Shown piece after piece: positions 23,585 through 52,535 of a stretch of DNA of 64,000 nucleotides; the stretch's first letter is position 1; each line of letters starts with the position of its first letter. The notes under the pieces are model-generated. The model did no database searches. It worked only from the letters and a program-made list of their open reading frames with translations, and was not told the origin of the DNA. Made by a program: the position numbers and the translations under genes. Source of the DNA: Candidatus Parcubacteria bacterium (GTDB taxonomy: Bacteria; Patescibacteriota; Microgenomatia; UBA12405); NCBI GenBank assembly GCA_023396915.1, contig JAEWUV010000002.1:86087-150086 (forward strand). Reading direction: 5' to 3'.

Positions 23585-24145
23585 TTAAATTTTAAAATAT
23601 TTATCTTTCTCCCAATTTATAACATTATTTTTAATATATTGTTTAATGGTGGAATACTGTTTTTGGTCTTTGACAATAATATCGTGATAACGAGGTTGCC
23701 AAGCAAAAAAGACGGTTTTAGGATTGATTTGACGGGTAACAGCTGACTTGAACTGTTTTATAACTAAAGGAATAGTTTGAGTAGAACGAATAGCTATTCG
23801 GTGATAAAAATAATTATTGTATCTTTTAGTTAGAGACGCATCATGATGCGTCTCTACAGGGTTAAATGAAGTTGATTCAAGATTTAAAAGTAGGTGGATA
23901 TGATTAGGCATAATTACGAATTCACGAATGAAAATATTTTTGAAATGTTTAAGGATGTCAGTAAGACATTGATTAGCGATTAGTCCCATTTTGGATAATT
24001 CCATTTGTTTATTAATTATTTTGCCAAAGAAATTATTGTGTTGATAAGTACAAATGGTGATGAAGTAAATGCCTGAAGTTGAATAATTGTGATTTTTTAG
24101 ACGAGGAGAAGATAGGCGATATTTGGAGGCAAATTTATTTTCCAC
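23585..24145 (-). CDS. RAYT (REP-associated tyrosine transposase) / IS200-like Y1 HUH transposase family protein, single-domain
   Basis: HUH motif (VIMPNHIHLLL). C-terminal AWQPRYHDIIVKD...IKQYIKNN matches the catalytic Tyr region of the IS200/RAYT family. 186 aa. Confidence 0.65.
   Translation of the reverse strand: MENKFASKYRLSSPRLKNHNYSTSGIYFITICTYQHNNFFGKIINKQMELSKMGLIANQCLTDILKHFKNIFIREFVIMPNHIHLLLNLESTSFNPVETHHDASLTKRYNNYFYHRIAIRSTQTIPLVIKQFKSAVTRQINPKTVFFAWQPRYHDIIVKDQKQYSTIKQYIKNNVINWEKDKYFKI
23831..23856. repeat. Perfect 26-bp palindrome tagagacgcatcatgatgcgtctcta inside the transposase CDS
   Basis: The reverse complement is identical to the forward sequence. It is in-frame and encodes ETHHDASL within 23585..24145. 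Confidence 0.9.
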
Positions 24146-30266: not shown

Positions 30267-31307
30267 TTAATAGATAAACATAGCATCACCAAAACTAAAG
30301 AAACGGTATTTTTTATCGACAGCCTCTTGATAGGCTTTAAAAATTCTGTCTTTGCCGGCAAAGGCAGAAACTAACATCAAAAGACTAGACTCGGGTAGAT
30401 GGAAATTGGTAATTAGAGCATCGACAAATTTAAATTGGTAGGGAGGATAAATAAAAATTTGAGTAGAATTTTGACCAGCAATAATTTGGTGACTTTTATC
30501 AATAGCTGATTCAAGGGTGCGGACGGAGGTGGTACCAACTGCAATAATTCGTTTGCCATCTTTTTTGGCTTGGTTTAGACGTTTAGCAACATTTTGTTTA
30601 ATTTCATAAAATTCAGAATGTAATCTTTTAGATTCAATATTTTCAGGTCTAAGATTTTGAAAAGTACCTAAGCCCACATGAAGAGTTATATATTCAATTT
30701 GGACGCCTTTTTGTTTTAGTTTGGCTAAAAGACTTTTGGTAAAGTGAAGTCCGGCAGTCGGAGCAGCGGCTGAACCGGTTTTTTGGGGATTAGCGTAAAC
30801 AGTTTGATATTCAGATCTAATTTCTTTTTCGGTTTGAACGGAATGAATATAAGGAGGAATGGGAGTATGGCCAATTTTGTCTAAAATCTGGAAAAATTGA
30901 TTATTTTTAAAATTAAATTTAATCTCGATTTGGCCAGTTTTTGGGTCACTTTTTAAAACTTTTCCCGTTAATTGGTGAGGAAAAAATAATTTTTGTCCAA
31001 CTTTGGGGCGAGGCTTAGAAATGGCTAGCCAAGTATTGCCGGTAAGTTGGTGAAGTAAAAGAATTTCGATTTCTCCCCCACTTTCTTTTTTACCAAAAAG
31101 ACGGGCAGGAAAAACTTTGCTTTGATTTAAAACTAGAACATCATTTGGCCCAAGTACGTCTAAAATATCGTAGAAATGCAAATGATTAATTTCTCCGGTT
31201 TTTTTGTTTAAAGTTAAAAGACGACAATGATCGCGTCTAGAGCTCGGCTTGTTGGCAATGAGAGATTGTGGTAGTAAATAGAAATAATCTTTTATATTTA
31301 AAGACAC
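30267..31307 (-). CDS. queA: S-adenosylmethionine:tRNA ribosyltransferase-isomerase
   Basis: The N-terminus (DYFYLLPQSLIANKPSSRRDHCRLL) and internal blocks (GHTPIPPYI, TAGLHFT) match QueA. Confidence 0.85.
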   Translation of the reverse strand: MSLNIKDYFYLLPQSLIANKPSSRRDHCRLLTLNKKTGEINHLHFYDILDVLGPNDVLVLNQSKVFPARLFGKKESGGEIEILLLHQLTGNTWLAISKPRPKVGQKLFFPHQLTGKVLKSDPKTGQIEIKFNFKNNQFFQILDKIGHTPIPPYIHSVQTEKEIRSEYQTVYANPQKTGSAAAPTAGLHFTKSLLAKLKQKGVQIEYITLHVGLGTFQNLRPENIESKRLHSEFYEIKQNVAKRLNQAKKDGKRIIAVGTTSVRTLESAIDKSHQIIAGQNSTQIFIYPPYQFKFVDALITNFHLPESSLLMLVSAFAGKDRIFKAYQEAVDKKYRFFSFGDAMFIY

Positions 31308-31326
31308 CCCGATATTTTACCAAAAG

Positions 31327-31800
31327 TTAGTTTAAAATCATGATGGAATAATTGAGGAAAGTGGCAAAACTTACCCAAGCCAGATAAGGCCAAAGCAAAA
31401 TTGAAGCTGATTTTTTGTATTGCCAAAACCTAATTATAGTCATAAGAATAGCCAACCAGAGAATTAAAATTTCGTAAAAAGCGAGCGTAGGTGAACGAAG
31501 ACCAAAAAATAAAACCGACCAAAAGAAATTAAGAATTAATTGGACCCAAAACCAAAATAAATTATTTTTATGATTCCAAACTAAATAAAGAGCGATACCC
31601 ATTAATAAAAATAATAAAGTCCAGACCGGGCCAAAAACCCAAGACGGTGGGTTGAAAGAAGATTTAATAACATCGGTAACGTACCAAGTTTTAACTGAGG
31701 TGGCAGTAAAGAAACTGCCCAAGATACCAATACCTTCGGTAATTAAAATACACAATAAAAATTTACCTAAATTAAATTTTGTTTTATTTTTTGATTTCAT
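31327..31800 (-). CDS. TspO/MBR family tryptophan-rich membrane protein
   Basis: Five transmembrane helices. NPPSWVFGPVWTLLF is the TspO signature. Confidence 0.75.
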   Translation of the reverse strand: MKSKNKTKFNLGKFLLCILITEGIGILGSFFTATSVKTWYVTDVIKSSFNPPSWVFGPVWTLLFLLMGIALYLVWNHKNNLFWFWVQLILNFFWSVLFFGLRSPTLAFYEILILWLAILMTIIRFWQYKKSASILLWPYLAWVSFATFLNYSIMILN

Positions 31801-31814
31801 AATTTAATATTACC

Positions 31815-32303
31815 TTATTTTTCTAAAACCATAATATTTTTATCATCTACTGATGAGATGATTTTGAACCCGAATTTCTCGTAAGTATGGATAGCAGAAA
31901 AATTATCTTGGCTGGTTTCTAACCAAAATCCAGTAATTTTAGATTCTTTTTGATTTTTCAAAAGGTCGTTAAAAGTAATTTTCATAAATTCTTGGGCAAG
32001 ACCCTGGCCTCGGGCTGAACCGTAAATTCTGATGGCAAAAGTAAAATTAGCTTTGATATTGTTAATTGGAGCTTGTTTTTGGCCAAACCAAATGATGCCG
32101 AGTAAATTTTTTTGAGAGTCGCAAAGGGAGTAAATTATTCTTCCCTGCTGTTGCCATTGATGAAAAGAATTTCTGTTGGCAAAACGAAGTGCGTCGGAGG
32201 TAAATTTTTGAATATCAGAATCGGTTTGGCTATATTCAATTAACTGGTCAATTTGACAATCAAGAATCCCTTCGTGGATAAAGACATCCTGATTAATCTT
32301 CAT
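31815..32303 (-). CDS. GNAT-family N-acetyltransferase
   Basis: 162 aa with a GNAT motif A-like RGQGLAQEF and a C-terminal YEKFGF. Confidence 0.6.
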   Translation of the reverse strand: MKINQDVFIHEGILDCQIDQLIEYSQTDSDIQKFTSDALRFANRNSFHQWQQQGRIIYSLCDSQKNLLGIIWFGQKQAPINNIKANFTFAIRIYGSARGQGLAQEFMKITFNDLLKNQKESKITGFWLETSQDNFSAIHTYEKFGFKIISSVDDKNIMVLEK

Positions 32304-32304
32304 T

Positions 32305-33567
32305 TTATTTACCGGTGGTAATAATTATGTCAAATTCGGAAGACTCGGTTAAACTAGTCTCTAAAACTTTTGATGGATAGTCATCCTCTAAAGATTTTTT
32401 GACTAAATCAACAACACTAGTGGGGACAGATTTTTTAGCTTCAATTTGGGTTTGACTAAAGTCATAATTGGCCGCGTTACCAACTGATTCGATACTAAAA
32501 TCATTTTTAGTTAGTAAATCACTAACTTTGCTGGCTTCCCCGGCAGTGCCAGTACCGTTTAAAATTTGAATTTTAAAATCTGAAATGGCTTTGGTAGGTA
32601 TTGGAGTGAGAGTAGGAGTAATCGATTCAACTTGGGATTTTTGATTGTTGTTGGTATTTTGGTGAACGACAATAAAAACAAAAATAGACAAAAGAAGAAT
32701 TAGAGGAATAATAAACATAATTTTGGGTAAAAACGACGATTTTGTATCGCTCTTTTGGATTTCTAGACGGGTTGTGTTGGCGTCAGGGCCACGTAACTCG
32801 CTGGAATAAATAATTCCTTTGAGAGGATTGATGTTGGTGTATTCCGGATGTAAATTACCAAATTCAAATTGGTTAAAAGCAACATCTCCCGTGGGTGAAA
32901 AAAGTATTTGTTGGGGCAATATTTGGAAACGTTGTTTGGCGTATTCAAAAACTTTATCAATGTCAATTTGGGATATTTTTTTGGTTAAGACAGAAGAAAA
33001 AATTGGGGTTTGATTAAAAGATAAAAGTAAAAGGTCTTGGTAATTTAGAAAAACCAACTTGTTTTTGGGAAGAAAACGACAGATGGTAGTAGAAAAGCTT
33101 TCTAATAATTTAATTTTCATTCGGGATTTTTGAACTGCGGTACGGAAAGTTGTAAAGAATTCAGCAGAGACAAAAATTACCTGAACTAAATTAAGATGGT
33201 TATACTTGGCAACGATTTTATAATCCCAAATTGTTTGAGATAAATCTTGCGAAACTGTCGGTTGAATTTTTGACTGGATTTGATTTTTTGATTTTGAATC
33301 TTTTGGAGAAAGTAAAAGACTGGAGACGGTAATAAAATGATCTGATAAAATAATACGAACTTTTGCAGAAAAATTAGATTTGATTTGAGATAAAGTAGCG
33401 GCAAGTGTTTCTGGCGTCCAAGTGAGTTCCCCAATTTTTTGGTATTTTTTAAAAATTTCGATGGTGTTTTTTGAAATATAAAGCAGATACATAATTCCAT
33501 TATAAACTAAAGGAAACTTAAAATTCAAAAATTTAAAGTAAGTTGTCGACAGGATCTTTAAGGCCAA
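32305..33567 (-). CDS. Membrane protein with a cytoplasmic N-domain, one TM helix and an extracellular LytR_C domain (true start probably internal)
   Basis: C-terminal IQILNGTGTAGEASKVSDLL...NAANYDFSQTQIE resembles the LytR_C domain. A TM helix lies at FIIPLILLLSIFVFIVV. The 5-prime end overlaps the next ORF by 35 nt. Confidence 0.4.
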   Translation of the reverse strand: MALKILSTTYFKFLNFKFPLVYNGIMYLLYISKNTIEIFKKYQKIGELTWTPETLAATLSQIKSNFSAKVRIILSDHFITVSSLLLSPKDSKSKNQIQSKIQPTVSQDLSQTIWDYKIVAKYNHLNLVQVIFVSAEFFTTFRTAVQKSRMKIKLLESFSTTICRFLPKNKLVFLNYQDLLLLSFNQTPIFSSVLTKKISQIDIDKVFEYAKQRFQILPQQILFSPTGDVAFNQFEFGNLHPEYTNINPLKGIIYSSELRGPDANTTRLEIQKSDTKSSFLPKIMFIIPLILLLSIFVFIVVHQNTNNNQKSQVESITPTLTPIPTKAISDFKIQILNGTGTAGEASKVSDLLTKNDFSIESVGNAANYDFSQTQIEAKKSVPTSVVDLVKKSLEDDYPSKVLETSLTESSEFDIIITTGK

Positions 33568-34231
33568 GAGTAGAAAGGTAACTGCATGTTTGACTTACAG
33601 TATGACCATCTTTGATATTAAGATAATCTTTTGAATCAAAGTCTATAGAACCAACATAACTTTTAAGATAACACCTTGCTTTATTATCACGATAAAGTTT
33701 AAATCCAATACCAGCTACGCGAGGTGAAAATTGAAGTTTTTCATCTTGGAAATTAATTCGACTTGTAGAAAAATCGATATAATACCCAACTATGGAAAGT
33801 ATTTTATCCGCTTCTATTTTTTGACCAGTCTGATATTCAGAAAAAGGAGCAATAGATATTTGGCATTCGTCAACTGTTTCACTGTTGGAAAAATCGAGTG
33901 AAGGAGAACCATCTTTTAAAAGTTGGTGCCTGTTTATAGCCCCCTCTGGGGCTAGTTTTATAATATAAAGACCTCTTTTTTGATCATAATATTCTGTTCG
34001 AACTGCGTAGAATTTTAGTCCGTCTTCTGATGGGTCATGCTCTTGAATTGATGCTTCAATGATACCTAAGGCATCTTCAAATCTTTCAACCTCAGGATTA
34101 TGAATAGTGTTTTTTCTACTAAATTCATAGTGGGTAATAGTAAGCCCTGTATTAAGAATAGATTTAAGATGTGGATTAATATCTGGACTAGCTTCTGGCC
34201 TCAATACAACCTCACTGGTTTTTTGTTCCAT
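33533..34231 (-). CDS. Hypothetical protein, paralog B of a two-member family flanking an HD hydrolase
   Basis: Shares LAPE, LYRDNKARCYLKS and YLSTLG blocks with 35101..35793. Confidence 0.35.
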   Translation of the reverse strand: MEQKTSEVVLRPEASPDINPHLKSILNTGLTITHYEFSRKNTIHNPEVERFEDALGIIEASIQEHDPSEDGLKFYAVRTEYYDQKRGLYIIKLAPEGAINRHQLLKDGSPSLDFSNSETVDECQISIAPFSEYQTGQKIEADKILSIVGYYIDFSTSRINFQDEKLQFSPRVAGIGFKLYRDNKARCYLKSYVGSIDFDSKDYLNIKDGHTVSQTCSYLSTLGLKDPVDNLL

Positions 34232-34265
34232 AATTGTTTAATTATAACTGTAACAAATATATTAA

Positions 34266-35081
34266 TCAGATTCTATACTCTTTGATAAGACCTTTTTCGG
34301 TTTTTTGATTGATGTAGGCGTGAACATCGAGATATTTTTCAATACCCGAACCAACGATTTTATTTTTTAAAAGTTCATCAAGTTGAAATATTCCAGCTGA
34401 ATTGTTTAATAAAATATCTATTTGGATTGGCTTGACAGTTCCCTTTTTAATATTAACTTTGTCAATGGCGGCGGCAGAAACTGAATAAATATCTAATTTT
34501 TCCTGTTGGTAGACGATGCGGGATCGGCCTTCGCTCATATCAAGGGCATCGGCAACCCGGACAATACCAGCTTCTAAAGTCAGTGGTCTGCCGTCGCTTC
34601 GATGACTGATAATAGCATGCAAAATTTCAGAAATAACAATAGTTTTTTCTTCCACTGGTAAAAAGTCGACCATTTGATGGAGTAAATTATTGGCCAAAAA
34701 GAGACTAAACATTTCATGATCTTTGCGGTTGATGGTCATGCCTAAATCGTGAAGAACACTGGCAAAAAATACAACCAACTCGGCATGATGGGACGACAAT
34801 TTATAGTCTTTGGTAATCGACATCTCTACGTCTGAGTCAATCAACATTCTAAGGAATTTAACGGCAATATTGGCAACTATTTGAAAATGGATTGGGCCAT
34901 GGTCGCTCATACCGAGTCGGTCAACAGCATTAACATTGATAATTCTCCAAAGAGTAGCAATTTCTTGGTTATTGTTGATATTGTCAATAGCTTTTCCTAA
35001 TAAAGAATTGCCGTTAGTGGGGACGTGGATTTTGTTTACTTTCTTGGGTATTTGGATACTTTGTTTCATAGTGAAAAGCAC
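34266..35081 (-). CDS. HD-domain phosphohydrolase
   Basis: His...HD...His...Asp metal-binding pattern: HGPIHFQ, VLHDLG, ISHRSD, VADALD. Confidence 0.55.
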   Translation of the reverse strand: MLFTMKQSIQIPKKVNKIHVPTNGNSLLGKAIDNINNNQEIATLWRIINVNAVDRLGMSDHGPIHFQIVANIAVKFLRMLIDSDVEMSITKDYKLSSHHAELVVFFASVLHDLGMTINRKDHEMFSLFLANNLLHQMVDFLPVEEKTIVISEILHAIISHRSDGRPLTLEAGIVRVADALDMSEGRSRIVYQQEKLDIYSVSAAAIDKVNIKKGTVKPIQIDILLNNSAGIFQLDELLKNKIVGSGIEKYLDVHAYINQKTEKGLIKEYRI

Positions 35082-35100
35082 TTTCTATACTGATACTGTA

Positions 35101-35793
35101 TCATAAATGGCTAGGTTGTTGTTTATCAGGAGTTTGAATTGGGAGAGTTGATAAATATTTAATAGCTTTTCTAATTTCAATACTTCCCTTTTTGGGTTTA
35201 CCTTCTCCATTCTTTCCACCAATAGAAATCTCTTCTGATTGGAAAAAATCATCCTTTGATCTAAGGCAGAAGGAGCACCTAGCACTATTATCTTCTTTAA
35301 AAAGTTGAATTCTAAGATTTACAGTTTCTTGGGATGAAATTCTTGCTGGGGAATATAATGGTTGACCATCTGAAGTTTTACAGATACGAAGTGGTTTTTC
35401 TAGAGTGAGGTCATATTGGGAAAAGGTTACTATGAAGGCTTTTTTATTGGGCTTTGTTCCTTCTAAGCGGTTGACCTTTATTGATGACTTATGGATTACT
35501 TTATCTGCTTCCATTTTAACTTTAACAGGGTAGGCTTTATCGTCGACATCTTCTTCTGGAGCTAAGTTAAAAAGATAACAACAGTTTTTAAAATCTGAAA
35601 AGTGCTGATAAAGGTAATAGGAGGATTGGGCTTTAATAACTGACTGGAGCTGTTTTAGCTGGGGGGATATTTCTCCGAAATAAGGGATGACCATATTCAG
35701 GATATCGACAAGTCGGAAATCAATTATTTTTGCGCTTGTCTCCTTTGGAGGGGGCGACAAAATTTCTCTGGAGTTCATATTTATCTGGACCAA
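35101..35793 (-). CDS. Hypothetical protein, paralog A (related to 33533..34231)
   Basis: Shares LAPE, LFKEDNSARCSFCLRS and YLSTLP blocks with paralog B. Confidence 0.35.
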   Translation of the reverse strand: MVQINMNSREILSPPPKETSAKIIDFRLVDILNMVIPYFGEISPQLKQLQSVIKAQSSYYLYQHFSDFKNCCYLFNLAPEEDVDDKAYPVKVKMEADKVIHKSSIKVNRLEGTKPNKKAFIVTFSQYDLTLEKPLRICKTSDGQPLYSPARISSQETVNLRIQLFKEDNSARCSFCLRSKDDFFQSEEISIGGKNGEGKPKKGSIEIRKAIKYLSTLPIQTPDKQQPSHL

Positions 35794-35858
35794 ATTGGCG
35801 GATGTTAGTATATAACAAAAAAAATTTTACTCAAGATAGTAAACAAAAAATCATATAT

Positions 35859-35901: not shown

Positions 35902-36918
35902 ATGATTAAGGTAAGTAAAGGTGAAATAATACTGGAGAGTAGACCAGATAAAAAATTTGAAAATGAAGGAGTTTTGAATCCTGCATGTATTGATGTTGGT
36001 GGAGTCACTCATATGTTTTATAGGGCCGTAAGTAAGGGTAATTTTTCTACAATAGGTTATTGTCAAATTAAGAATGGTAAAGTAATTTTTAGAGCTGAAG
36101 AACCAATATTAGTTCCTGAATATCAATATGAAAAACATGGAGTAGAAGATCCAAGGGTGACTTTTTTGGATGGTAAGTATTATATGATGTATACCGCTTA
36201 TGATGGGAGAAGTGCTGTAGTAGCTTATGCTGTAAGTAATGACTTAAAAAATTGGGTTAAAAAGGGTTTGATTAGTCCTCAGATGAGCTATGATGAGGCG
36301 GAAGATATTTTTAGAGACTCGGGTGTAAATGAAGGGTATAAGTTTTTTGAAGAGATGTTTAGGTATACAAGATCAGATAAGGTTAAGTTATGGGAAAAAG
36401 ACACAATGTTGTTACCTAAAAAAATTAATGATAAATATGTATTGATTCATAGAGTGATGCCGGGAATACAAATATGTTATTTTGATGATTTTGAGCAACT
36501 TTTAACCCAACAGTTTTGGAAAAATTATTTGAAAACGTTGGCAAAATGGGTAATAATGGAACCTAAGTTTGATTATGAGAAGGCTTATATTGGTGGTGGT
36601 TGCATCCCGTTGGAAACAGATGAAGGTTGGTTGATGATTTTTCATGGAGTAAAAATAGAAAATGAAATAAAAACCTATTCGGCTTCAGCGGCTTTGCTGG
36701 ATAAAAATAACCCTCAAAAAGTAATTGGAAGACTTTCATATCCCCTATTTTATCCGGAAGAAAAGTGGGAGATTGAGGGAGCAGTTAATAATGTGGTTTT
36801 CCCCACTGGTCTGTCCCGTAATGGGGATGAATTAAGTATTTTTTATGGAGCAGCTGATGATGTTGTTGGGGTGAGAAAAGTTGTTTTGTCAGAGTTGCTA
36901 AAGGAATTATTGAAATGA
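35902..36918 (+). CDS. GH130-family glycoside hydrolase/phosphorylase (DUF377-type beta-mannoside phosphorylase-like)
   Basis: GVLNPACIDVGG...HGVEDPRVTFLDGKYYMMYTAYDG follows the GH130 beta-propeller pattern. Confidence 0.55.
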   Translation: MIKVSKGEIILESRPDKKFENEGVLNPACIDVGGVTHMFYRAVSKGNFSTIGYCQIKNGKVIFRAEEPILVPEYQYEKHGVEDPRVTFLDGKYYMMYTAYDGRSAVVAYAVSNDLKNWVKKGLISPQMSYDEAEDIFRDSGVNEGYKFFEEMFRYTRSDKVKLWEKDTMLLPKKINDKYVLIHRVMPGIQICYFDDFEQLLTQQFWKNYLKTLAKWVIMEPKFDYEKAYIGGGCIPLETDEGWLMIFHGVKIENEIKTYSASAALLDKNNPQKVIGRLSYPLFYPEEKWEIEGAVNNVVFPTGLSRNGDELSIFYGAADDVVGVRKVVLSELLKELLK

Positions 36919-38096
36919 AGAAAAGAAAAGCTATTAAAGTAATTTATGTTTCAACATATATTCCACAGAAATGTGGTGTTGCTACTTTCACTAAAGATGT
37001 AACCAGTGCCATTAATTTAATTAATCCAAAGGCATTGGCTGAAATAATGGCAGTAGTGAAAAAAGATGAAAGCTATGATTTTCCTTGGGAAGTGAAATAT
37101 CAAATTGAAAAAGATAATAAAAAATCCTATATAAGAGCGGCTAGTTATATTAATAAATCCAGCTGCGATTTGGTTTTAATAGAACATGAGTTTGGGATTT
37201 TTGGGGGCGATTGTGGTAATTACTTACTTGATTTTTTGAAGGCAGTTAAAAAACCAAAAGTGATGACCTGCCATACTTTGATTGAAGATAAAAATTCATG
37301 TTGGGGAAAAACATTTTCAGAATTGATAAAAGAGGTTGATGGATTAACGGTGATGACTAAATATAGTGCCAGAAAATTAGCAAAATTATATAATTTTAAT
37401 TCCAAAAGAATAGCAATTATCCCTCATGGAACTCCGGATATAGAGTATGGGTTAAATACTAAACATAAAAAAAAGAAAGGGGTTTCAGAGAGATTAGTTT
37501 TGGGGAATATTAACCTGTTATCGGAAAATAAAGGGATTAATTATACAGTTGAAGCAGTGGCAGAGATTGCCAAAGTTTATCCTGATGTCCTATACCTTAT
37601 AATCGGTCAGACTCATCCTAACATTTTAAAAAAGGAAGGAGAAAAATATCGAGATGCACTTAAAAGAAAAATTAAAAAACTCGGAATACAAAAGAACGTA
37701 AAATTTATTAATAGATATGTATCTTTGGAAGAATTGATTGAATGGTTAAAGATAATTGATATTTATATAACTCCTTATTTGGATAAACAACAATCTTCGT
37801 CCGGAGCTTTGGCTTATGCTGTCGGTGCGGGTAAAATTTGTATTTCGACAGGTTATTTTTATGCCAAAGAGATATTAGCCAACGGAAGAGGAATAATTAT
37901 TCCTTTTAAAAATTCAAAGGCGATTGCTAATGAAGTGATAAAGGTTTGGAAAAACGAGAATAAAAGAAAAAAAATGCAAGAGAAGGCTTATGCCTATGGT
38001 AGATTTATGACTTGGCCGAGTGTGGCCTTGCAACATTTAGACTTTTTTACTGAGATTATAAAAAAATATGGAAGTAAAAAGTCAAAAACAGATTAA
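36915..38096 (+). CDS. GT4-family (GT-B) glycosyltransferase
   Basis: 393 aa. The C-terminal half carries the GT4 pattern (Glycos_transf_1-like) including the E...E region. Confidence 0.6.
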   Translation: MKKRKAIKVIYVSTYIPQKCGVATFTKDVTSAINLINPKALAEIMAVVKKDESYDFPWEVKYQIEKDNKKSYIRAASYINKSSCDLVLIEHEFGIFGGDCGNYLLDFLKAVKKPKVMTCHTLIEDKNSCWGKTFSELIKEVDGLTVMTKYSARKLAKLYNFNSKRIAIIPHGTPDIEYGLNTKHKKKKGVSERLVLGNINLLSENKGINYTVEAVAEIAKVYPDVLYLIIGQTHPNILKKEGEKYRDALKRKIKKLGIQKNVKFINRYVSLEELIEWLKIIDIYITPYLDKQQSSSGALAYAVGAGKICISTGYFYAKEILANGRGIIIPFKNSKAIANEVIKVWKNENKRKKMQEKAYAYGRFMTWPSVALQHLDFFTEIIKKYGSKKSKTD

Positions 38097-39072
38097 ATAT
38101 CTGTTAAAAATAACCGATAATATCGGTTTAGTTGAACACTGTGAAGGAGCTATTTTAAATTATAAAGAAGGTTGGTGCGTGGATGACAATGCCAGGGCTT
38201 TGCAGATTTGCTTAAGATATAAATTGAAAAAATTAGAAAAAGTTAAATCTATTTATTTTAAATTTGTTAAATCGGCCTGGAGAGAAGAAAAGTTATTTAA
38301 CGATTTGAACGCAGATTTAACTTGGCAGGAAAAATTTTTAATAAACGGAGAGCATTGTGGAAGGGTTTTGTTTGCATTGGGAGAATCAATAAAAAGCGGA
38401 TACAGGATAAGTGAGGCAAAAAAACTTTTTGATGATATTTATGAATTGGTCAAAATAAATAGGACTGATTTTTTACGAGTGGTATCAGAAATAATTTTAG
38501 GACTACAGTTTTACAAAAGTGAGGAAATTTCATTTTGGGCAGATAAATTAATAAGCCAATATAGAAAAGAAAGTAACGAAAATTGGCATTGGTTTGAAGA
38601 CAAAATTTCTTATGATAACGGTATTCCCCCATTAGCTTTGTTGACGGCTTATCAAAAAACAAATAATAAAAAATATTTAAAAATCGGATTAGAATCATTG
38701 AATTTTTTAACAAAACAAATTTTTGATGAAGAAAAAAAATATTTTTCTTTTGTGGGGAATAAAGGGTGGTTAACAAAATCCGGGGTAAAAGCAAAATTTG
38801 ATCAACAACCAATTGAGGTAGGGTCAATGGTTGAAGCTTACCTAATGGCTTATGAAATAACAGGTAAGAGAAAATATAAAATATTGGCAGAAAAAGCTTT
38901 TGAGTGGTTTTTGGGTAAAAATATATTATCTAAAAATATGATAGATAAAAAAAGTGGTGGTATTTATGACGGTTTAAATGAAGACGGAAAAATTAATCCA
39001 AATCAAGGGGCAGAGTCGGTTTTGTCATATTTGATAGCAGCAAAAGAGTTGGAAAAATTTTTTTTAAATTAA
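38068..39072 (+). CDS. Hypothetical protein, possibly an (alpha/alpha)6-barrel glycoside hydrolase-like protein
   Basis: Translationally coupled to the GT4 gene. The GWCVDDNARAL block is suggestive, but no family could be confirmed. Confidence 0.3.
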   Translation: MEVKSQKQIKYLLKITDNIGLVEHCEGAILNYKEGWCVDDNARALQICLRYKLKKLEKVKSIYFKFVKSAWREEKLFNDLNADLTWQEKFLINGEHCGRVLFALGESIKSGYRISEAKKLFDDIYELVKINRTDFLRVVSEIILGLQFYKSEEISFWADKLISQYRKESNENWHWFEDKISYDNGIPPLALLTAYQKTNNKKYLKIGLESLNFLTKQIFDEEKKYFSFVGNKGWLTKSGVKAKFDQQPIEVGSMVEAYLMAYEITGKRKYKILAEKAFEWFLGKNILSKNMIDKKSGGIYDGLNEDGKINPNQGAESVLSYLIAAKELEKFFLN

Positions 39073-39605
39073 GCCGTTATTTGTTGGTGGGTTTGGAAGT
39101 TCTCTTGAATTAAAGCAGGAAAAACATTAGCGACAAAATCTGGAGTTATTCTTTTTGAAAAACAAACTGAAATAACAGATTGACGGGCTAAATCTTGGTT
39201 AGAAATTTCAGGGTCTGATTTGTGAATTAATCCTCGAGCAATTTCTTGAGTTAAATCTATTAAATATTCCCTCCTGTCATATTTACTATCAGTTTCGTCT
39301 ATTAATGTTCCGATTTTCCCAGGATTAAATAAAATAACCCCTAATTTGGGTTGGTAAAAAGATCCAAGATTCGGATGTTCTTGAAAAAAAATAGGAGATT
39401 TATATAGGGGTAAACCGTGTGATTCGGCGACAAATCTAAGTTTGTGATAATAATCTAAAAGCTGCTGGTCATAACTGGTATAAGAATTTTCAAATAGTGA
39501 GTTTAAATCAGGTAAACCAAATTTATTCCTCAAATTCTCATGTTCAGAAATTAATTTCTGACAAGTGTCGACGATCTGATCTTGATTGGATGGGGTTTCT
39601 GGCAT
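39069..39605 (-). CDS. Hypothetical protein
   Basis: 178-aa ORF with no recognisable motif. Confidence 0.3.
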   Translation of the reverse strand: MPETPSNQDQIVDTCQKLISEHENLRNKFGLPDLNSLFENSYTSYDQQLLDYYHKLRFVAESHGLPLYKSPIFFQEHPNLGSFYQPKLGVILFNPGKIGTLIDETDSKYDRREYLIDLTQEIARGLIHKSDPEISNQDLARQSVISVCFSKRITPDFVANVFPALIQENFQTHQQITA

Positions 39606-39618
39606 GATTATTTATAAT

Positions 39619-40137
39619 CTATTCTGAATTTAAAATAAAGCCGTGGGATTGGCCGAATTGAACAAAACCGTCAATATTTAATTTATTTTTTGAGAGAGTA
39701 CAGTCAATAAAATTAATCCCGTAAATTTGAGAATTAGTGAAATCGGAATTAGCAATGGAACATTTATTGAAAGAACTTTTGGTTAAATCGGAATTTAAAA
39801 AGGAAACTTGTTCAAGTAAACAAAAATCAAAAAGAGATTCGGTTAAATTGCAATTTTCAAAAATACTTTTAGATAAATTAAATTTTTTCTTTTGCCCCGG
39901 ATTTTTAAATTGATGGAAAGTAGTTAGATTCATTAGAGTATTGATGAATTTAGATTGTTTTAGATTAATATTAGAAAAATCAGTGCCGCTAAAACAACAA
40001 CCGTCAAAAACGCAGTTATCGAAAGAAGTAAAATCAAAGACTGCCTGGCTAAAATTACAACCGGAAAAATGACATTTGGTAAAAGAAGAAAATTTTAAAT
40101 TTTTGCCTGAAAAATCTTGTCCGGAATAGCTAGTCAT
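39619..40137 (-). CDS. Pentapeptide-repeat protein
   Basis: Tandem A(D/N)LxF-like pentapeptides: CHFSGCNFSQAVFDFTSFDNCVFDGCCFSGTDFSNINL. Confidence 0.7.
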   Translation of the reverse strand: MTSYSGQDFSGKNLKFSSFTKCHFSGCNFSQAVFDFTSFDNCVFDGCCFSGTDFSNINLKQSKFINTLMNLTTFHQFKNPGQKKKFNLSKSIFENCNLTESLFDFCLLEQVSFLNSDLTKSSFNKCSIANSDFTNSQIYGINFIDCTLSKNKLNIDGFVQFGQSHGFILNSE

Positions 40138-40143
40138 AATTTA

Positions 40144-41031
40144 TTACGCCATTACTAAAAACCCAATACTGATTATGGACAAGATAATACCAAGTAGTAA
40201 ACGCAGCCAATGTTTATGCCAATTGATTTCCTTAAAAATGAAAACCCCAATTAAAATAGTCCAAACGGCATTAAATTGAATGACAGTGAAAGCAATTGAT
40301 GCCGGAATTAAATGATTAGAAATAATTGAGGTTAGCGATGCAAAAAAATAAAGTAAACCACCTAGCACCCCCAGCCAATTGTCTTTCTTTTTAATCTGAG
40401 TCAATTCTTTTAAGGAGTGATCTTTGAATAAAATAAATATTAATGCTGAAATAAAAACAAAAGATGAAAAATAAAGTTGTTGTGCCTGGGTTCCGAGACC
40501 ATCGTTAATGGCTATTTTTTGTAACATAGCATTGACGCCAAACAAACAAGCCCCAGTGACAGCTAGCCAAATACTTTTTTTATCAATTTGATTTTCCTCA
40601 GATTTTTTAATGGTAAAAAGATAAGCGGAAAAAGTTATAGTGATAACTGCTGCAACTACAAATTCGACTTTTGTTTGTGCCCATTCTCCGAGAACTATTA
40701 AAGATAAAAGAGCTCCAATTGGTCCTTGAAGATTTTTCCATTGGTTCGATCTGGATAAACCAATTCGATCAATGGCTGTGACAAAAAGAACCCCTCCAAT
40801 CATCCAATTTATTCCATTAATAATGGGATAAATAATAGCTGGATGAAATAAATTATCGAAATTACCAGAAATTAGACCATTAATAATATATGAAATTAGT
40901 GATGCGATAGTAAAACCAAGACCAACGAATAACATATAGTTTGATGGTTTGGCTTTTGAGAGTTTCTTAGGGATGATGTATAAACTGAAGAAGACGGAAC
41001 ATAATAAGGCAATAAGGATACCGGTACTCAT
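40144..41031 (-). CDS. Ten-TM permease (DMT/EamA-like superfamily, tentative)
   Basis: 295 aa with about 10 hydrophobic helices arranged as two 5-TM halves. Confidence 0.3.
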   Translation of the reverse strand: MSTGILIALLCSVFFSLYIIPKKLSKAKPSNYMLFVGLGFTIASLISYIINGLISGNFDNLFHPAIIYPIINGINWMIGGVLFVTAIDRIGLSRSNQWKNLQGPIGALLSLIVLGEWAQTKVEFVVAAVITITFSAYLFTIKKSEENQIDKKSIWLAVTGACLFGVNAMLQKIAINDGLGTQAQQLYFSSFVFISALIFILFKDHSLKELTQIKKKDNWLGVLGGLLYFFASLTSIISNHLIPASIAFTVIQFNAVWTILIGVFIFKEINWHKHWLRLLLGIILSIISIGFLVMA

Positions 41032-41056
41032 GCCTGTATTATATCAGTCTGTTGTA

Positions 41057-41506
41057 CTATATCTCACCGATGGAAATATCAAGAATAGTGACAGATTGAT
41101 CATTAACTGAAACTTGAGAATTTTTCTTTTGATTTAATATGGCTTGACCAATAGGGCTTTCAATGGATATCCAACCAGGGTTTAGATTAGAATCGTTTTT
41201 ACCAACTAAAGTAATTTCCATTTCCCGACCATCAGATTCAAACTTTATTTTGACACGACTTCCAAAAACAACCGTGTCTGTTTGAGTTGGGGCAAATTGG
41301 ACCTGAGAAGTTTCTAAATCTTTTTTGATTTCAGCAATTTGAGAGGAAAGAACCTGGGCTCGTTCGCCAAGGAAAATATAAGCAGAGTTTTCTTTTAAAT
41401 CCCCTTCTTCGGCGGCTTTGCCACGGTCTTCGAGGGTACGACTATATTCCGCATTAAGTGCTTGAAATTTTTCTTCTAATTTTTGTTTACCTAGTTTTGT
41501 AATCAT
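41057..41506 (-). CDS. greA: Transcription elongation factor GreA
   Basis: 149 aa. An N-terminal coiled coil containing GDLKENSAY precedes a C-terminal FKBP-like domain. Confidence 0.8.
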   Translation of the reverse strand: MITKLGKQKLEEKFQALNAEYSRTLEDRGKAAEEGDLKENSAYIFLGERAQVLSSQIAEIKKDLETSQVQFAPTQTDTVVFGSRVKIKFESDGREMEITLVGKNDSNLNPGWISIESPIGQAILNQKKNSQVSVNDQSVTILDISIGEI

Positions 41507-52276: not shown

Positions 52277-52535
52277 AAAAACTCCTTTTAGGACTATAAG
52301 CCCTTAATGAACTTTTAAATGGGATGGTCATCAGAGCAAATTTTTCTTTTCAAAAAATTTTTTAGGTTGTCTGATACAACCTGAGGGTACCCGCAGATGG
52401 TTCGAATTCCCCCTTCCTCGTATCCCCGACTTGTCGGGGCCACACGCTTATATTGTTAATAAAGACAACATCCTTAAACAAGTGTATCAAAATAGCAAAA
52501 TTAAGTCTAATTAAGGTGGTAAAATTGCCTATCCA

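What the first reader, a model, noticed from the sequence alone, without database searches (positions are those of the whole stretch)
33533..35793. Uncharacterised cassette: two paralogous proteins bracketing an HD-domain hydrolase, followed by a LytR_C membrane protein
35101..35793 and 33533..34231 are paralogs, both about 230 aa. They share LAPE, (L/F)(Y/F)(R/K)(D/E)DN(K/S)ARC...S and YLSTL(G/P) blocks. They flank a 271-aa HD phosphohydrolase and precede a membrane protein with an extracellular LytR_C domain, all collinear. I could not place the paralog family in any known domain. Duplicated unknowns around an HD nuclease/phosphohydrolase is an architecture reminiscent of nucleotide-signalling or defence modules.
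Basis: seen in the sequence. Interest (0 to 1): 0.55.

Follow-up and report, generated by a model that had tools for sequence, protein, structure and literature searches.

The report
Lineage-specific orphan paralogs flanking HD gene
Two very distantly related copies of a rare, undescribed protein family found only in one group of ultra-small (CPR) bacteria sit on either side of a widely conserved HD-hydrolase gene, but the trio is unique to this genome and shows no sign of being a defence or signalling module.

Summary
Four collinear minus-strand genes are present: B (35101-35793), HD (34266-35081), A (33533-34231) and a LytR_C membrane protein.

A and B are true but very distant paralogs. BLASTP is marginal (E=0.054). 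A profile built from 22 non-window family members scores B at 18 bits over nearly its full length, and 0 of 10,000 shuffles reach that score.

The family is tiny, with 22 representatives among 1.84 billion proteins. All placed members lie in one syntenic region of Shapirobacteria-like CPR genomes. It has no Pfam, NCBIfam, PHROG or PADLOC hit. A confident AlphaFold model (pLDDT 90) has no convincing PDB or viral fold match.

The "cassette" is not a unit. HD→LytR_C→GNAT→TspO→QueA is a conserved backbone, and close relatives (HD 88-91% identical) lack both paralogs next to HD. Other genomes carry one family copy, usually upstream of HD, and two have it directly before LytR_C with no HD.

HD belongs to a very large, highly conserved, uncharacterised family with no conserved neighbours outside this clade.

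Best reading: a non-enzymatic accessory protein family in a variable slot, duplicated here, with B degenerate or neofunctionalised. Interest is modest.

The parts
35101..35793 (-). Gene B. A highly divergent member of the orphan family. The ORF from the TTG start is 230 aa; the likely true start is the ATG at 35778 (225 aa).
   Evidence: ORF. Only an identical database protein (P0003, 225 aa) was found. The family HMM built without window sequences scores it 18.0 bits, with 0 of 10,000 shuffles as high. hhalign gives E=1e-4. The chance of a 225-codon open frame is 6e-9, and codon usage is native in frame. B keeps 12 of 36 conserved family positions.
34266..35081 (-). Stand-alone HD-domain phosphohydrolase. 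Likely start is the ATG at 35069 (267 aa). It belongs to a very large, highly conserved, uncharacterised family.
   Evidence: PF01966 scores 27.6 bits. More than 8,000 homologs were found; the 120 listed are 62-91% identical. Invariant residues include H57, H61, H107-D108, H151, H156, D174 and D177. The best PDB sequence hit is YedJ (3gw7) at E=0.018.
33533..34231 (-). Gene A. A typical member of the orphan family (232 aa): soluble, two N-terminal helices, an antiparallel beta-sheet of about 10 strands, and C-terminal helices.
   Evidence: 22 representatives among 1.84 billion proteins. Family alignment A3. AlphaFold model with pLDDT 90.4 and pTM 0.86. No fold match.
32305..33567 (-). Bitopic membrane protein. 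Likely start is the ATG at 33492 (395 aa). It has an unassigned cytoplasmic N-domain of about 250 aa, one TM helix, and an extracytoplasmic LytR_C domain.
   Evidence: PF13399 scores 39.8-40 bits. The N-domain has no PDB or Pfam match. It is conserved directly downstream of HD in L003, L006-L011, L033, L041 and the P0004/P0131 contigs.
35111..35846 (.). A 736-bp block containing gene B. It is present in the window and replaced by 14 bp in syntenic relative L003.
   Evidence: blastn of the window against L003. The junction sequences show no shared terminal repeats.
33510..34269 (.). A 760-bp block containing gene A. It is present in the window and replaced by 23 bp in L003.
   Evidence: There is no DNA similarity between the two blocks.
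30267..32303 (-). Conserved downstream backbone: GNAT acetyltransferase (31815-32303), TspO (31327-31800) and QueA (30267-31307).
   Evidence: Synteny table.
35902..39072 (+). Divergently transcribed glycan block: GH130, GT1-family glycosyltransferase and a GH88-like protein. It borders the variable slot.
   Evidence: It is present or absent among relatives.

Best explanation
A and B are two members of a small protein family restricted to one Shapirobacteria-like (Microgenomates, CPR) clade.

Shown:
- The family consists of ~225-aa soluble alpha+beta proteins with no invariant catalytic-type residues.
- The family gene is accessory. It occupies a variable slot at the head of a conserved, same-strand gene block (HD hydrolase → LytR_C membrane protein → GNAT → TspO → QueA).
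- Where present, it is under strong purifying selection.
- Copies in closely related genomes are deeply divergent, and presence, position and copy number all vary.
- This window is the only locus examined with two copies.

Inferred:
- A resident or acquired copy was duplicated or joined by a second copy, so that one lies upstream of HD (B) and one between HD and LytR_C (A).
- A retains the family's conserved surface residues and is the working copy.
- B has lost most of them and is either degenerating or neofunctionalised.
- The gaps between the four genes are short (31-40 bp), so they are probably co-transcribed.
- Mechanistically, the protein most likely acts as a non-enzymatic binding or adaptor protein in the cytoplasm. 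Its role is most likely connected with the cell-envelope functions encoded around it (the LytR_C protein, GH130/GT1 and PMT_2 glycosyl enzymes). It is not an obligate partner of the HD enzyme.

The HD gene is a broadly conserved housekeeping-type phosphohydrolase that happens to be the neighbour.
For: Paralogy.

Family size and restriction:
- 22 representatives among 1.84 billion proteins.
- Only one or two hits in the 5.8-billion word-indexed search.
- None in viral contigs.

Ten of twelve contexts lie in the same syntenic region:
- A→HD adjacent in L007, L008, P0134 and P0131.
- One opposite-strand gene between them in L006 and L041.
- Across the glycan block in the P0143 contig.
- A→LytR_C adjacent with no HD in L037 and L038.
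 The other two, L001 and L035/L036, are cut short by contig ends.

Backbone without the family: L003, L009, L010, L011 and L033.

Selection: dN/dS between L007 and L008 is 0.052, against 0.032 for HD and 0.078 for LytR_C.

Deep divergence at the locus:
- Window A is 43% identical to the L006 copy while HD is 81% identical.
- The genomes with 87-91% identical HD carry family members only 26-33% identical to A.

Non-enzymatic character: there are no invariant columns except Met1, and G174 is nearly invariant. The proteins are soluble with no TM segment.

B's degeneration: it keeps 12 of 36 conserved positions and has lost R78, E122, G149, G174, G176, K190, Y192 and G194. It is still an intact ORF with native codon usage.

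Envelope-rich neighbourhood.
Against: - No direct evidence exists for any binding partner or ligand.
- HD and LytR_C sequences are almost unchanged between genomes with and without the family (88-91% and 85% identity). This argues against a tight, co-evolving physical partnership with either protein.
- The recurrent proximity could simply be inherited synteny within one narrow clade.
- Whether the second copy arose by local duplication or by acquisition cannot be resolved. B's nearest relatives (P0124 24%, P0002 23%, A 21%) differ only marginally.
Confidence: 0.6

Rival explanations
1. B, HD and A (with or without LytR_C) form a functional three- or four-gene nucleotide-signalling or anti-phage defence module. 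The paralogs act as sensors or regulators and HD is the nuclease or nucleotide-hydrolase effector.
For: The genes are tightly spaced on the same strand. HD gives weak sub-threshold matches to Cas3-HD models in PADLOC (E 0.004-0.02). In five other genomes a family gene lies immediately upstream of HD. Family copies are highly divergent between close relatives, a pattern also seen in conflict genes.
Against: - A and B have no PADLOC hit, and HD's hits are only generic HD similarity.
- The trio is unique to this genome.
- HD is present at 88-91% identity without any adjacent family gene.
- The family occurs without HD in L037 and L038.
- The HD family has more than 8,000 members across phyla with unrelated neighbours.
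- Neighbouring slot genes are housekeeping or envelope genes.
- There are no mobile-element hallmarks.
Confidence: 0.06
2. The family is a hypervariable 'conflict' gene, such as an immunity, anti-phage or host-interaction factor of these episymbiotic bacteria. It is exchanged among related genomes at a chromosomal hotspot and acts independently of HD.
For: - Presence/absence, position and copy-number polymorphism at one locus.
- 26-43% identity between copies in genomes whose HD is 81-91% identical, yet dN/dS of 0.05 within a lineage.
- The family is extremely rare.
Against: No toxin, nuclease, ATPase or other partner gene travels with it. It has no signal peptide or TM segment. It is absent from viral contigs and PHROGs. 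Other slot occupants are not defence genes. Its codon usage is native.
Confidence: 0.15
3. The family is a cytoplasmic carrier of a hydrophobic ligand or lipid, with helices packed on a curved beta-sheet. It would serve envelope or lipid handling in lipid-auxotrophic CPR cells.
Confidence: 0.1
4. A and B are unrelated proteins, and the shared motifs are chance similarity in an AT-rich, low-complexity proteome.
For: BLASTP gives E=0.054. P0002 against B gives E=4.6. phmmer of B finds no family member. With only four non-window members in the profile, B ranked 5th of 5,001.
Against: The 22-member profile that excludes window sequences gives 18 bits in a single collinear near-full-length alignment, with 0 of 10,000 shuffles as high. 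B is the top non-member among real ORFs by three orders of magnitude in E-value. hhalign gives E=1e-4. The lengths match, N-terminal motifs match, and B sits in the position the family gene holds in other genomes.
Confidence: 0.02
5. The two genes are cargo of small mobile elements or phage remnants that inserted on both sides of HD.
For: Each gene lies in a discrete block of about 740-760 bp that is absent from relative L003.
Against: There are no terminal inverted or direct repeats, and no DNA similarity between the blocks. The upstream block replaces the relative's promoter region rather than inserting cleanly. There are no integrase or transposase neighbours. There are no viral-contig or PHROG hits. 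Base composition and codon usage are native. The family sits at the same locus across the clade, which suggests ancestry with losses.
Confidence: 0.04

Closest known systems
HD-domain metal-dependent phosphohydrolase superfamily (Pfam PF01966). The nearest solved relative by sequence is E. coli YedJ (PDB 3gw7), which is uncharacterised.
   Same: The middle gene has the H...HD...H...H...D metal-ligand pattern, invariant across 20 diverse homologs. It passes the Pfam threshold.
   Different: It belongs to no characterised HD subfamily. RNase Y scores 14 bits against a cutoff of 454. Cas3-HD matches are sub-threshold. YedJ matches at only E=0.018 over 85 residues. Its substrate is unknown.
LytR_C-domain envelope proteins (Pfam PF13399), for example actinobacterial LCP-LytR_C ligases such as CglA, and Cei.
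   Same: It has a C-terminal extracytoplasmic LytR_C domain after a single TM helix. The gene neighbourhood is cell-envelope rich. PMC11481543 describes LytR_C as accompanying cell-wall glycopolymer ligases, with the domain's own function unknown.
   Different: It has no LCP catalytic domain. Instead it has a cytoplasmic N-domain of about 250 aa with no Pfam or PDB match. The Cei model matches only weakly (19 bits against a cutoff of 150).
p32/gC1qBP/Mam33-type and helix-grip-type alpha+beta folds. These are the nearest structural resemblances for the A/B family.
Lineage-specific orphan (ORFan) gene families with local duplication in CPR/Patescibacteria genomes.
   Same: The family is rare, restricted to one clade, unannotated, variable in presence and copy number, and set within otherwise conserved synteny.
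   Different: It is unusually well constrained within lineages (dN/dS 0.05). It also gives a confident predicted fold (pLDDT 90), so it is a genuine structured protein family rather than a spurious or transient ORF.

Membership tests
HD superfamily (PF01966) | Profile match above the curated threshold | tested here: met
   27.6 bits against a cutoff of 22.
HD superfamily (PF01966) | Conserved His/Asp metal ligands (H, HD, H, H, D) | tested here: met
   H57, H61, H107-D108, H151, H156, D174 and D177 are invariant in 20 homologs at 62-91% identity.
RNase Y (TIGR03319) | Equivalog-level profile score | tested here: not met
   14.4 bits against a cutoff of 454. There is no KH domain or N-terminal TM segment in the sequence.
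Cas3 HD nuclease / known defence systems (PADLOC) | Significant match of any cassette protein to a defence-system model, plus the partner genes | tested here: not met
   A, B and LytR_C have no hits. HD matches Cas3-HD models only at E 0.004-0.02. No cas or other defence partners are nearby.
LytR_C domain proteins (PF13399) | Profile match above threshold, C-terminal to a TM helix | tested here: met
   39.8-40 bits against a cutoff of 22.2, at residues 306-391 of the 395-aa form. A hydrophobic helix precedes it.
LCP (LytR-CpsA-Psr) glycopolymer ligases | LCP catalytic domain | tested here: not met
   No LCP-domain Pfam hit in the 395-aa protein.
The orphan A family (defined here, alignment A3) | B matches a family profile built without window sequences, collinear over most of its length and above empirical null distributions | tested here: met
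   18.0 bits, HMM 54-225 / B 45-225, 0 of 10,000 shuffles as high, E=2e-4 among real ORFs. hhalign E=1e-4.
The orphan A family (defined here, alignment A3) | Retention of the conserved polar and glycine positions (R78, E122, G149, G174, K190 and others) | tested here: not met
   This row refers to B, which keeps only 12 of 36 conserved columns. A keeps them.
Any described protein family or solved fold (for A) | Significant sequence or structure match | tested here: not met
Mobile element or phage cargo | Terminal repeats or target duplication, a recombinase, or occurrence on viral contigs | tested here: not met
Conserved gene cassette (paralog-HD-paralog-LytR_C) | The same gene set and order recurs in independent genomes | tested here: not met
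   Only the window has two copies. The HD-LytR_C pair recurs without the family, and the family recurs without HD.

The most novel reading that the evidence does not exclude
The A/B family is a previously undescribed fold and family that acts as an exchangeable specificity or adaptor component of a CPR-specific envelope or conflict system. That system would be built around the LytR_C membrane protein, with the HD hydrolase as an optional enzymatic arm. The deep allelic divergence, copy-number change and degenerate second copy would then reflect diversifying turnover in host- or phage-interaction.
Probability: 0.12. Interest if true: 0.6.

Novelty: new member of a known kind. Interest (0 to 1): 0.3.

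Why it matters
The direct result is a correction: this is not a defence or signalling cassette. It also documents three things.

1. An undescribed, structurally confident protein family that is confined to one CPR clade and always sits at one chromosomal locus.
2. An unusual evolutionary pattern. The gene is strongly constrained within lineages, yet only 26-43% identical between genomes whose neighbouring genes are 81-91% identical.
3. An HD hydrolase family that is 50-65% identical across bacterial phyla and archaea, yet has no solved structure or known substrate.

Each is a reasonable target for structural genomics or CPR biology. None by itself answers a long-standing question.

Tried and rejected
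- Pairwise BLASTP and a 2-sequence hhalign were too weak to decide paralogy. A 4-member profile gave only p≈0.001.
- The word-indexed homolog search found almost nothing for A and B. The family was recovered only by local phmmer on HD loci and by the exhaustive HMMER search.
- The search for related loci with the full 23-sequence alignment failed because no block was conserved enough. With a 5-sequence alignment, the metagenome scan returned only the known 1.1-kb contig and the viral scan returned nothing.
- The first AlphaFold run with 2 sequences was poor (pLDDT 59) and was superseded by the 23-sequence run.
- The AFDB Foldseek library was unavailable.
- I checked whether co-directional ~400-500-aa genes downstream of HD in distant phyla were hidden LytR_C proteins. 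On reading their sequences they look unrelated: esterase-like, ComM-like, a metal-transporter-like membrane protein, and xanthine-dehydrogenase-like.
- I checked whether unannotated ~170-200-aa neighbours (L035 x203, L041 x170 and x197, window unk178) are further divergent paralogs. They are not.
- Promoter and terminator scans were uninformative, with counts at shuffle expectation.
- A literature search for the HD COG number gave nothing relevant.
Full report
**What is there**

The window is part of a ~907-kb single scaffold, ENA ERZ28596294 LEMO22-1 scaffold_1. It is about 30-38% G+C throughout.

Gene order and the closest named relative (L010, 'Candidatus Shapirobacteria') place it in the Microgenomates group of the Patescibacteria (CPR).

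On the minus strand there are four collinear genes:
- B: 35101-35793.
- HD: 34266-35081.
- A: 33533-34231.
- A membrane protein: 32305-33567.

They are followed by GNAT, TspO and QueA. A GH130/GT1/GH88-like block is transcribed divergently upstream.

Database gene calls and alignment to relatives indicate these true starts:
- 35778 for B (225 aa).
- 35069 for HD (267 aa).
- 33492 for the membrane protein (395 aa).

With these starts the intergenic gaps are 31, 34 and 40 bp, and no genes overlap.

**Domain assignments**

HD passes Pfam PF01966 (27.6 bits against a cutoff of 22). The membrane protein has a C-terminal LytR_C domain (about 40 bits against 22.2) after a single hydrophobic helix.

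A and B hit nothing in Pfam, NCBIfam, PADLOC or PHROGs.

**Are A and B paralogs?**

BLASTP gives E=0.054.

The word-indexed search of 5.8 billion proteins found only one relative of A (P0002, 40% identity) and none of B.

Local phmmer on loci fetched through the HD gene found three more A-type genes (L006, L007, L008). The exhaustive HMMER search of 1.84 billion representatives found 22 in total, nearly all 220-250 aa.

With this family (alignment A3):
- hhalign against B gives probability 57%, E=1e-4, over 163 collinear columns.
- An HMM built only from the 22 non-window members scores B at 18.0 bits in one alignment, HMM 54-225 to B 45-225.
- None of 10,000 shuffles of B reaches that score.
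- Among about 2,100-2,200 real ORF segments from all fetched loci, B is the best non-member at E=2e-4, with the next at 0.26.

B's N-terminus from Met6 also matches the family N-terminal motif.

I conclude that A and B are genuine but very distant paralogs, about 21% identical.

B is a maintained coding gene. The chance of a 225-codon open frame at this base composition is 6e-9, and its in-frame codon usage is native.

**What the family looks like**

Members are soluble and hydrophilic with no TM segment. Most have pI of about 5, with a range of 4.7-9.6.

The alignment has no invariant column other than Met1, and G174 is nearly invariant. There is no catalytic-type His/Asp/Cys/Ser constellation.

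AlphaFold2 with the 23-sequence alignment gives a confident model, with pLDDT 90.4 and pTM 0.86. It has two N-terminal helices (residues 20-40 and 46-61), an antiparallel sheet of about ten strands, and short C-terminal helices.

No convincing fold match was found:
- Foldseek against the PDB finds nothing significant (best E=0.24, TM≤0.21).
- The viral structure library gives nothing.
- The AFDB library was unavailable, so I do not claim a new fold. I claim only that no solved structure matches convincingly.

**Is the cassette a unit?**

No. Relatives whose HD is 88-91% identical (the P0004 contig and L003) have GH130(-) | HD | LytR_C | GNAT | TspO | QueA, with neither paralog next to HD.

blastn of the window against L003 shows two discrete blocks:
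- 35111-35846 (736 bp, gene B), replaced by 14 bp in L003.
- 33510-34269 (760 bp, gene A), replaced by 23 bp in L003.

The blocks share no DNA similarity and have no terminal repeats. The upstream block replaces the relative's promoter region.

HD→LytR_C→(GNAT)→TspO→QueA recurs in L003, L006-L011, L033, L041 and two JGI contigs. The slot just upstream of HD is variable. It can contain:
- a family gene;
- a pentapeptide-repeat gene;
- a small antisense DUF167/YggU gene;
- a DUF2207 membrane-protein gene;
- nothing.

In some genomes it is bordered by NifS/NifU/Rrf2, and in others by the glycan block.

Contexts of family members:
- Immediately upstream of HD: L007, L008, P0134, P0131.
- One opposite-strand gene away from HD: L006, L041.
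- Across the glycan block: P0143, in the genome with the 91%-identical HD.
- Directly upstream of LytR_C with no HD in the fetched region: L037, L038.
- Too short to tell: L001, L035/L036.

Only the window has two copies. Profile searches with and without B found no further hidden paralogs in any locus.

**The HD gene**

Its family has more than 8,000 members, and the 120 best listed are 62-91% identical. The genome scan shows 50-65% identity in Chloroflexia, Saccharimonadia, Daviesbacteria and Spirochaetota, and one protein-search hit is a Bathyarchaeia protein.

Outside the Shapirobacteria-like clade its neighbours are unrelated.

The metal-ligand residues are invariant. No characterised subfamily or solved structure matches it:
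- RNase Y scores 14 bits against a cutoff of 454.
- Cas3-HD matches are sub-threshold.
- The best PDB sequence hit is YedJ at E=0.018.

It is therefore a highly conserved, housekeeping-type HD hydrolase with an unknown substrate. It has no conserved linkage beyond local synteny.

**Evolutionary pattern of the family**

Between the closely related L007 and L008 the family gene is under strong purifying selection. Its dN/dS is 0.052 at 92% amino-acid identity, similar to HD (0.032) and LytR_C (0.078).

Yet window A is only 43% identical to the L006 copy, while HD is 81% identical between the same genomes. The genomes with the most similar HD (87-91%) carry family members only 26-33% identical to A.

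So the locus carries deeply divergent family lineages. These may be ancient paralogs with differential loss, or alleles replaced by transfer among related CPR genomes. This is not a uniformly fast-evolving gene.

B's nearest relatives (P0124 24%, P0002 23%, A 21%) are also A's nearest relatives. B has lost 24 of 36 conserved positions, including R78, E122, G149, G174, G176, K190, Y192 and G194.

The simplest scenario (inference) has three steps:
1. The ancestral family gene sat upstream of HD.
2. A second copy of the same subclade was gained in this lineage, by duplication or transfer, between HD and LytR_C.
3. The upstream copy then came under relaxed or redirected selection and became B.

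**How it most likely works**

Shown:
- The family is real, structured, constrained, non-catalytic in appearance, cytoplasmic, accessory, and tied to one chromosomal neighbourhood rich in envelope functions.
- HD and LytR_C do not need it, and their sequences do not track its presence.

Inferred: it is a non-enzymatic binding or adaptor protein whose role is auxiliary to the envelope-related genes it precedes. Of the two copies, A is the functional one and B is degenerate or neofunctionalised.

I put 0.6 on this overall statement. The descriptive and evolutionary part is much more secure than the functional part.

Rivals and their weights:
- A hypervariable conflict gene independent of HD: 0.15.
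- A hydrophobic-ligand carrier: 0.10.
- Mobile-element cargo: 0.04.
- Chance similarity: 0.02.

**Comparison with known systems, and verdict**

HD and LytR_C are ordinary members of known superfamilies, although both of these specific families are uncharacterised. PMC11481543 describes LytR_C as of 'yet unknown function'.

The A/B family belongs to no described family. It is best classed as a lineage-restricted orphan family with a local duplication, which is a common kind of thing in CPR genomes. It is unusual only in how well constrained it is and how confidently it folds.

The paralog-HD-paralog arrangement is an idiosyncrasy of one genome and not a new kind of system. Interest is modest at 0.3.

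The most novel reading the evidence does not exclude is an exchangeable adaptor of a CPR-specific envelope or conflict system. I give it about 0.12 probability.

Noticed in passing
window 52329-52459 (-): A glmS glucosamine-6-phosphate ribozyme (Rfam RF00234, 52.9 bits against a gathering score of 37, E=2e-9). It was the only Rfam family detected in the window.
   Followed up: no
window 39060-41057: A third block of about 2 kb is absent from syntenic relative L003. It carries an EamA/sugar-transporter gene (40144-41031), a pentapeptide-repeat protein (39619-40137; Pfam E=3e-22) and a 178-aa protein with no family (39069-39605). Homologs of the pentapeptide gene lie immediately upstream of the A-family gene in L007 and L008.
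   Followed up: partly
L007 5708-5929 (-), L008 5707-5928 (-), L009 5104-5331 (-), L033 3962-4186 (-), L001 807-1028 (-): A small DUF167/YggU gene (74-76 aa; PF02594 E=4e-18; dN/dS 0.13) lies antisense between the A-family gene and HD, or next to the A-family gene, in several relatives. The window lacks it.
   Followed up: partly
window 34266-35069 (-) and loci L006-L034: The HD family is 50-65% identical between Patescibacteria, Chloroflexia and Spirochaetota (Treponema), and one close hit is a Bathyarchaeia protein. Yet it has no solved structure and no characterised member (best PDB hit YedJ at E=0.018). This is an unusually conserved enzyme of unknown function.
   Followed up: partly
window 32756-33492 (-) (N-terminal ~245 aa of the LytR_C protein): The cytoplasmic N-terminal domain of the LytR_C membrane protein has no Pfam or PDB sequence match. 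The whole protein diverges faster than its neighbours among relatives (53-62% identity where HD is 80-84%).
   Followed up: partly
window 23585-24004 (= L002 20228-20647): A 139-aa gene has a faint precomputed hit to Y1 transposase (PF01797, REP-associated tyrosine-transposase type) about 10 kb from the finding.
   Followed up: no
window 1-64000: No tRNA or tmRNA genes were found in the 64-kb window. GC skew is positive in all but one 2-kb bin and the cumulative skew rises throughout, so the window contains no skew switch.
   Followed up: no
L006-L009, L011-L013, L033 (record titles): Several GTDB representative MAGs titled 'uncultured Gammaproteobacteria bacterium' share the gene order of the Shapirobacteria-like window, with HD 73-91% identical. 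The record titles look like mislabelled taxonomy.
   Followed up: no
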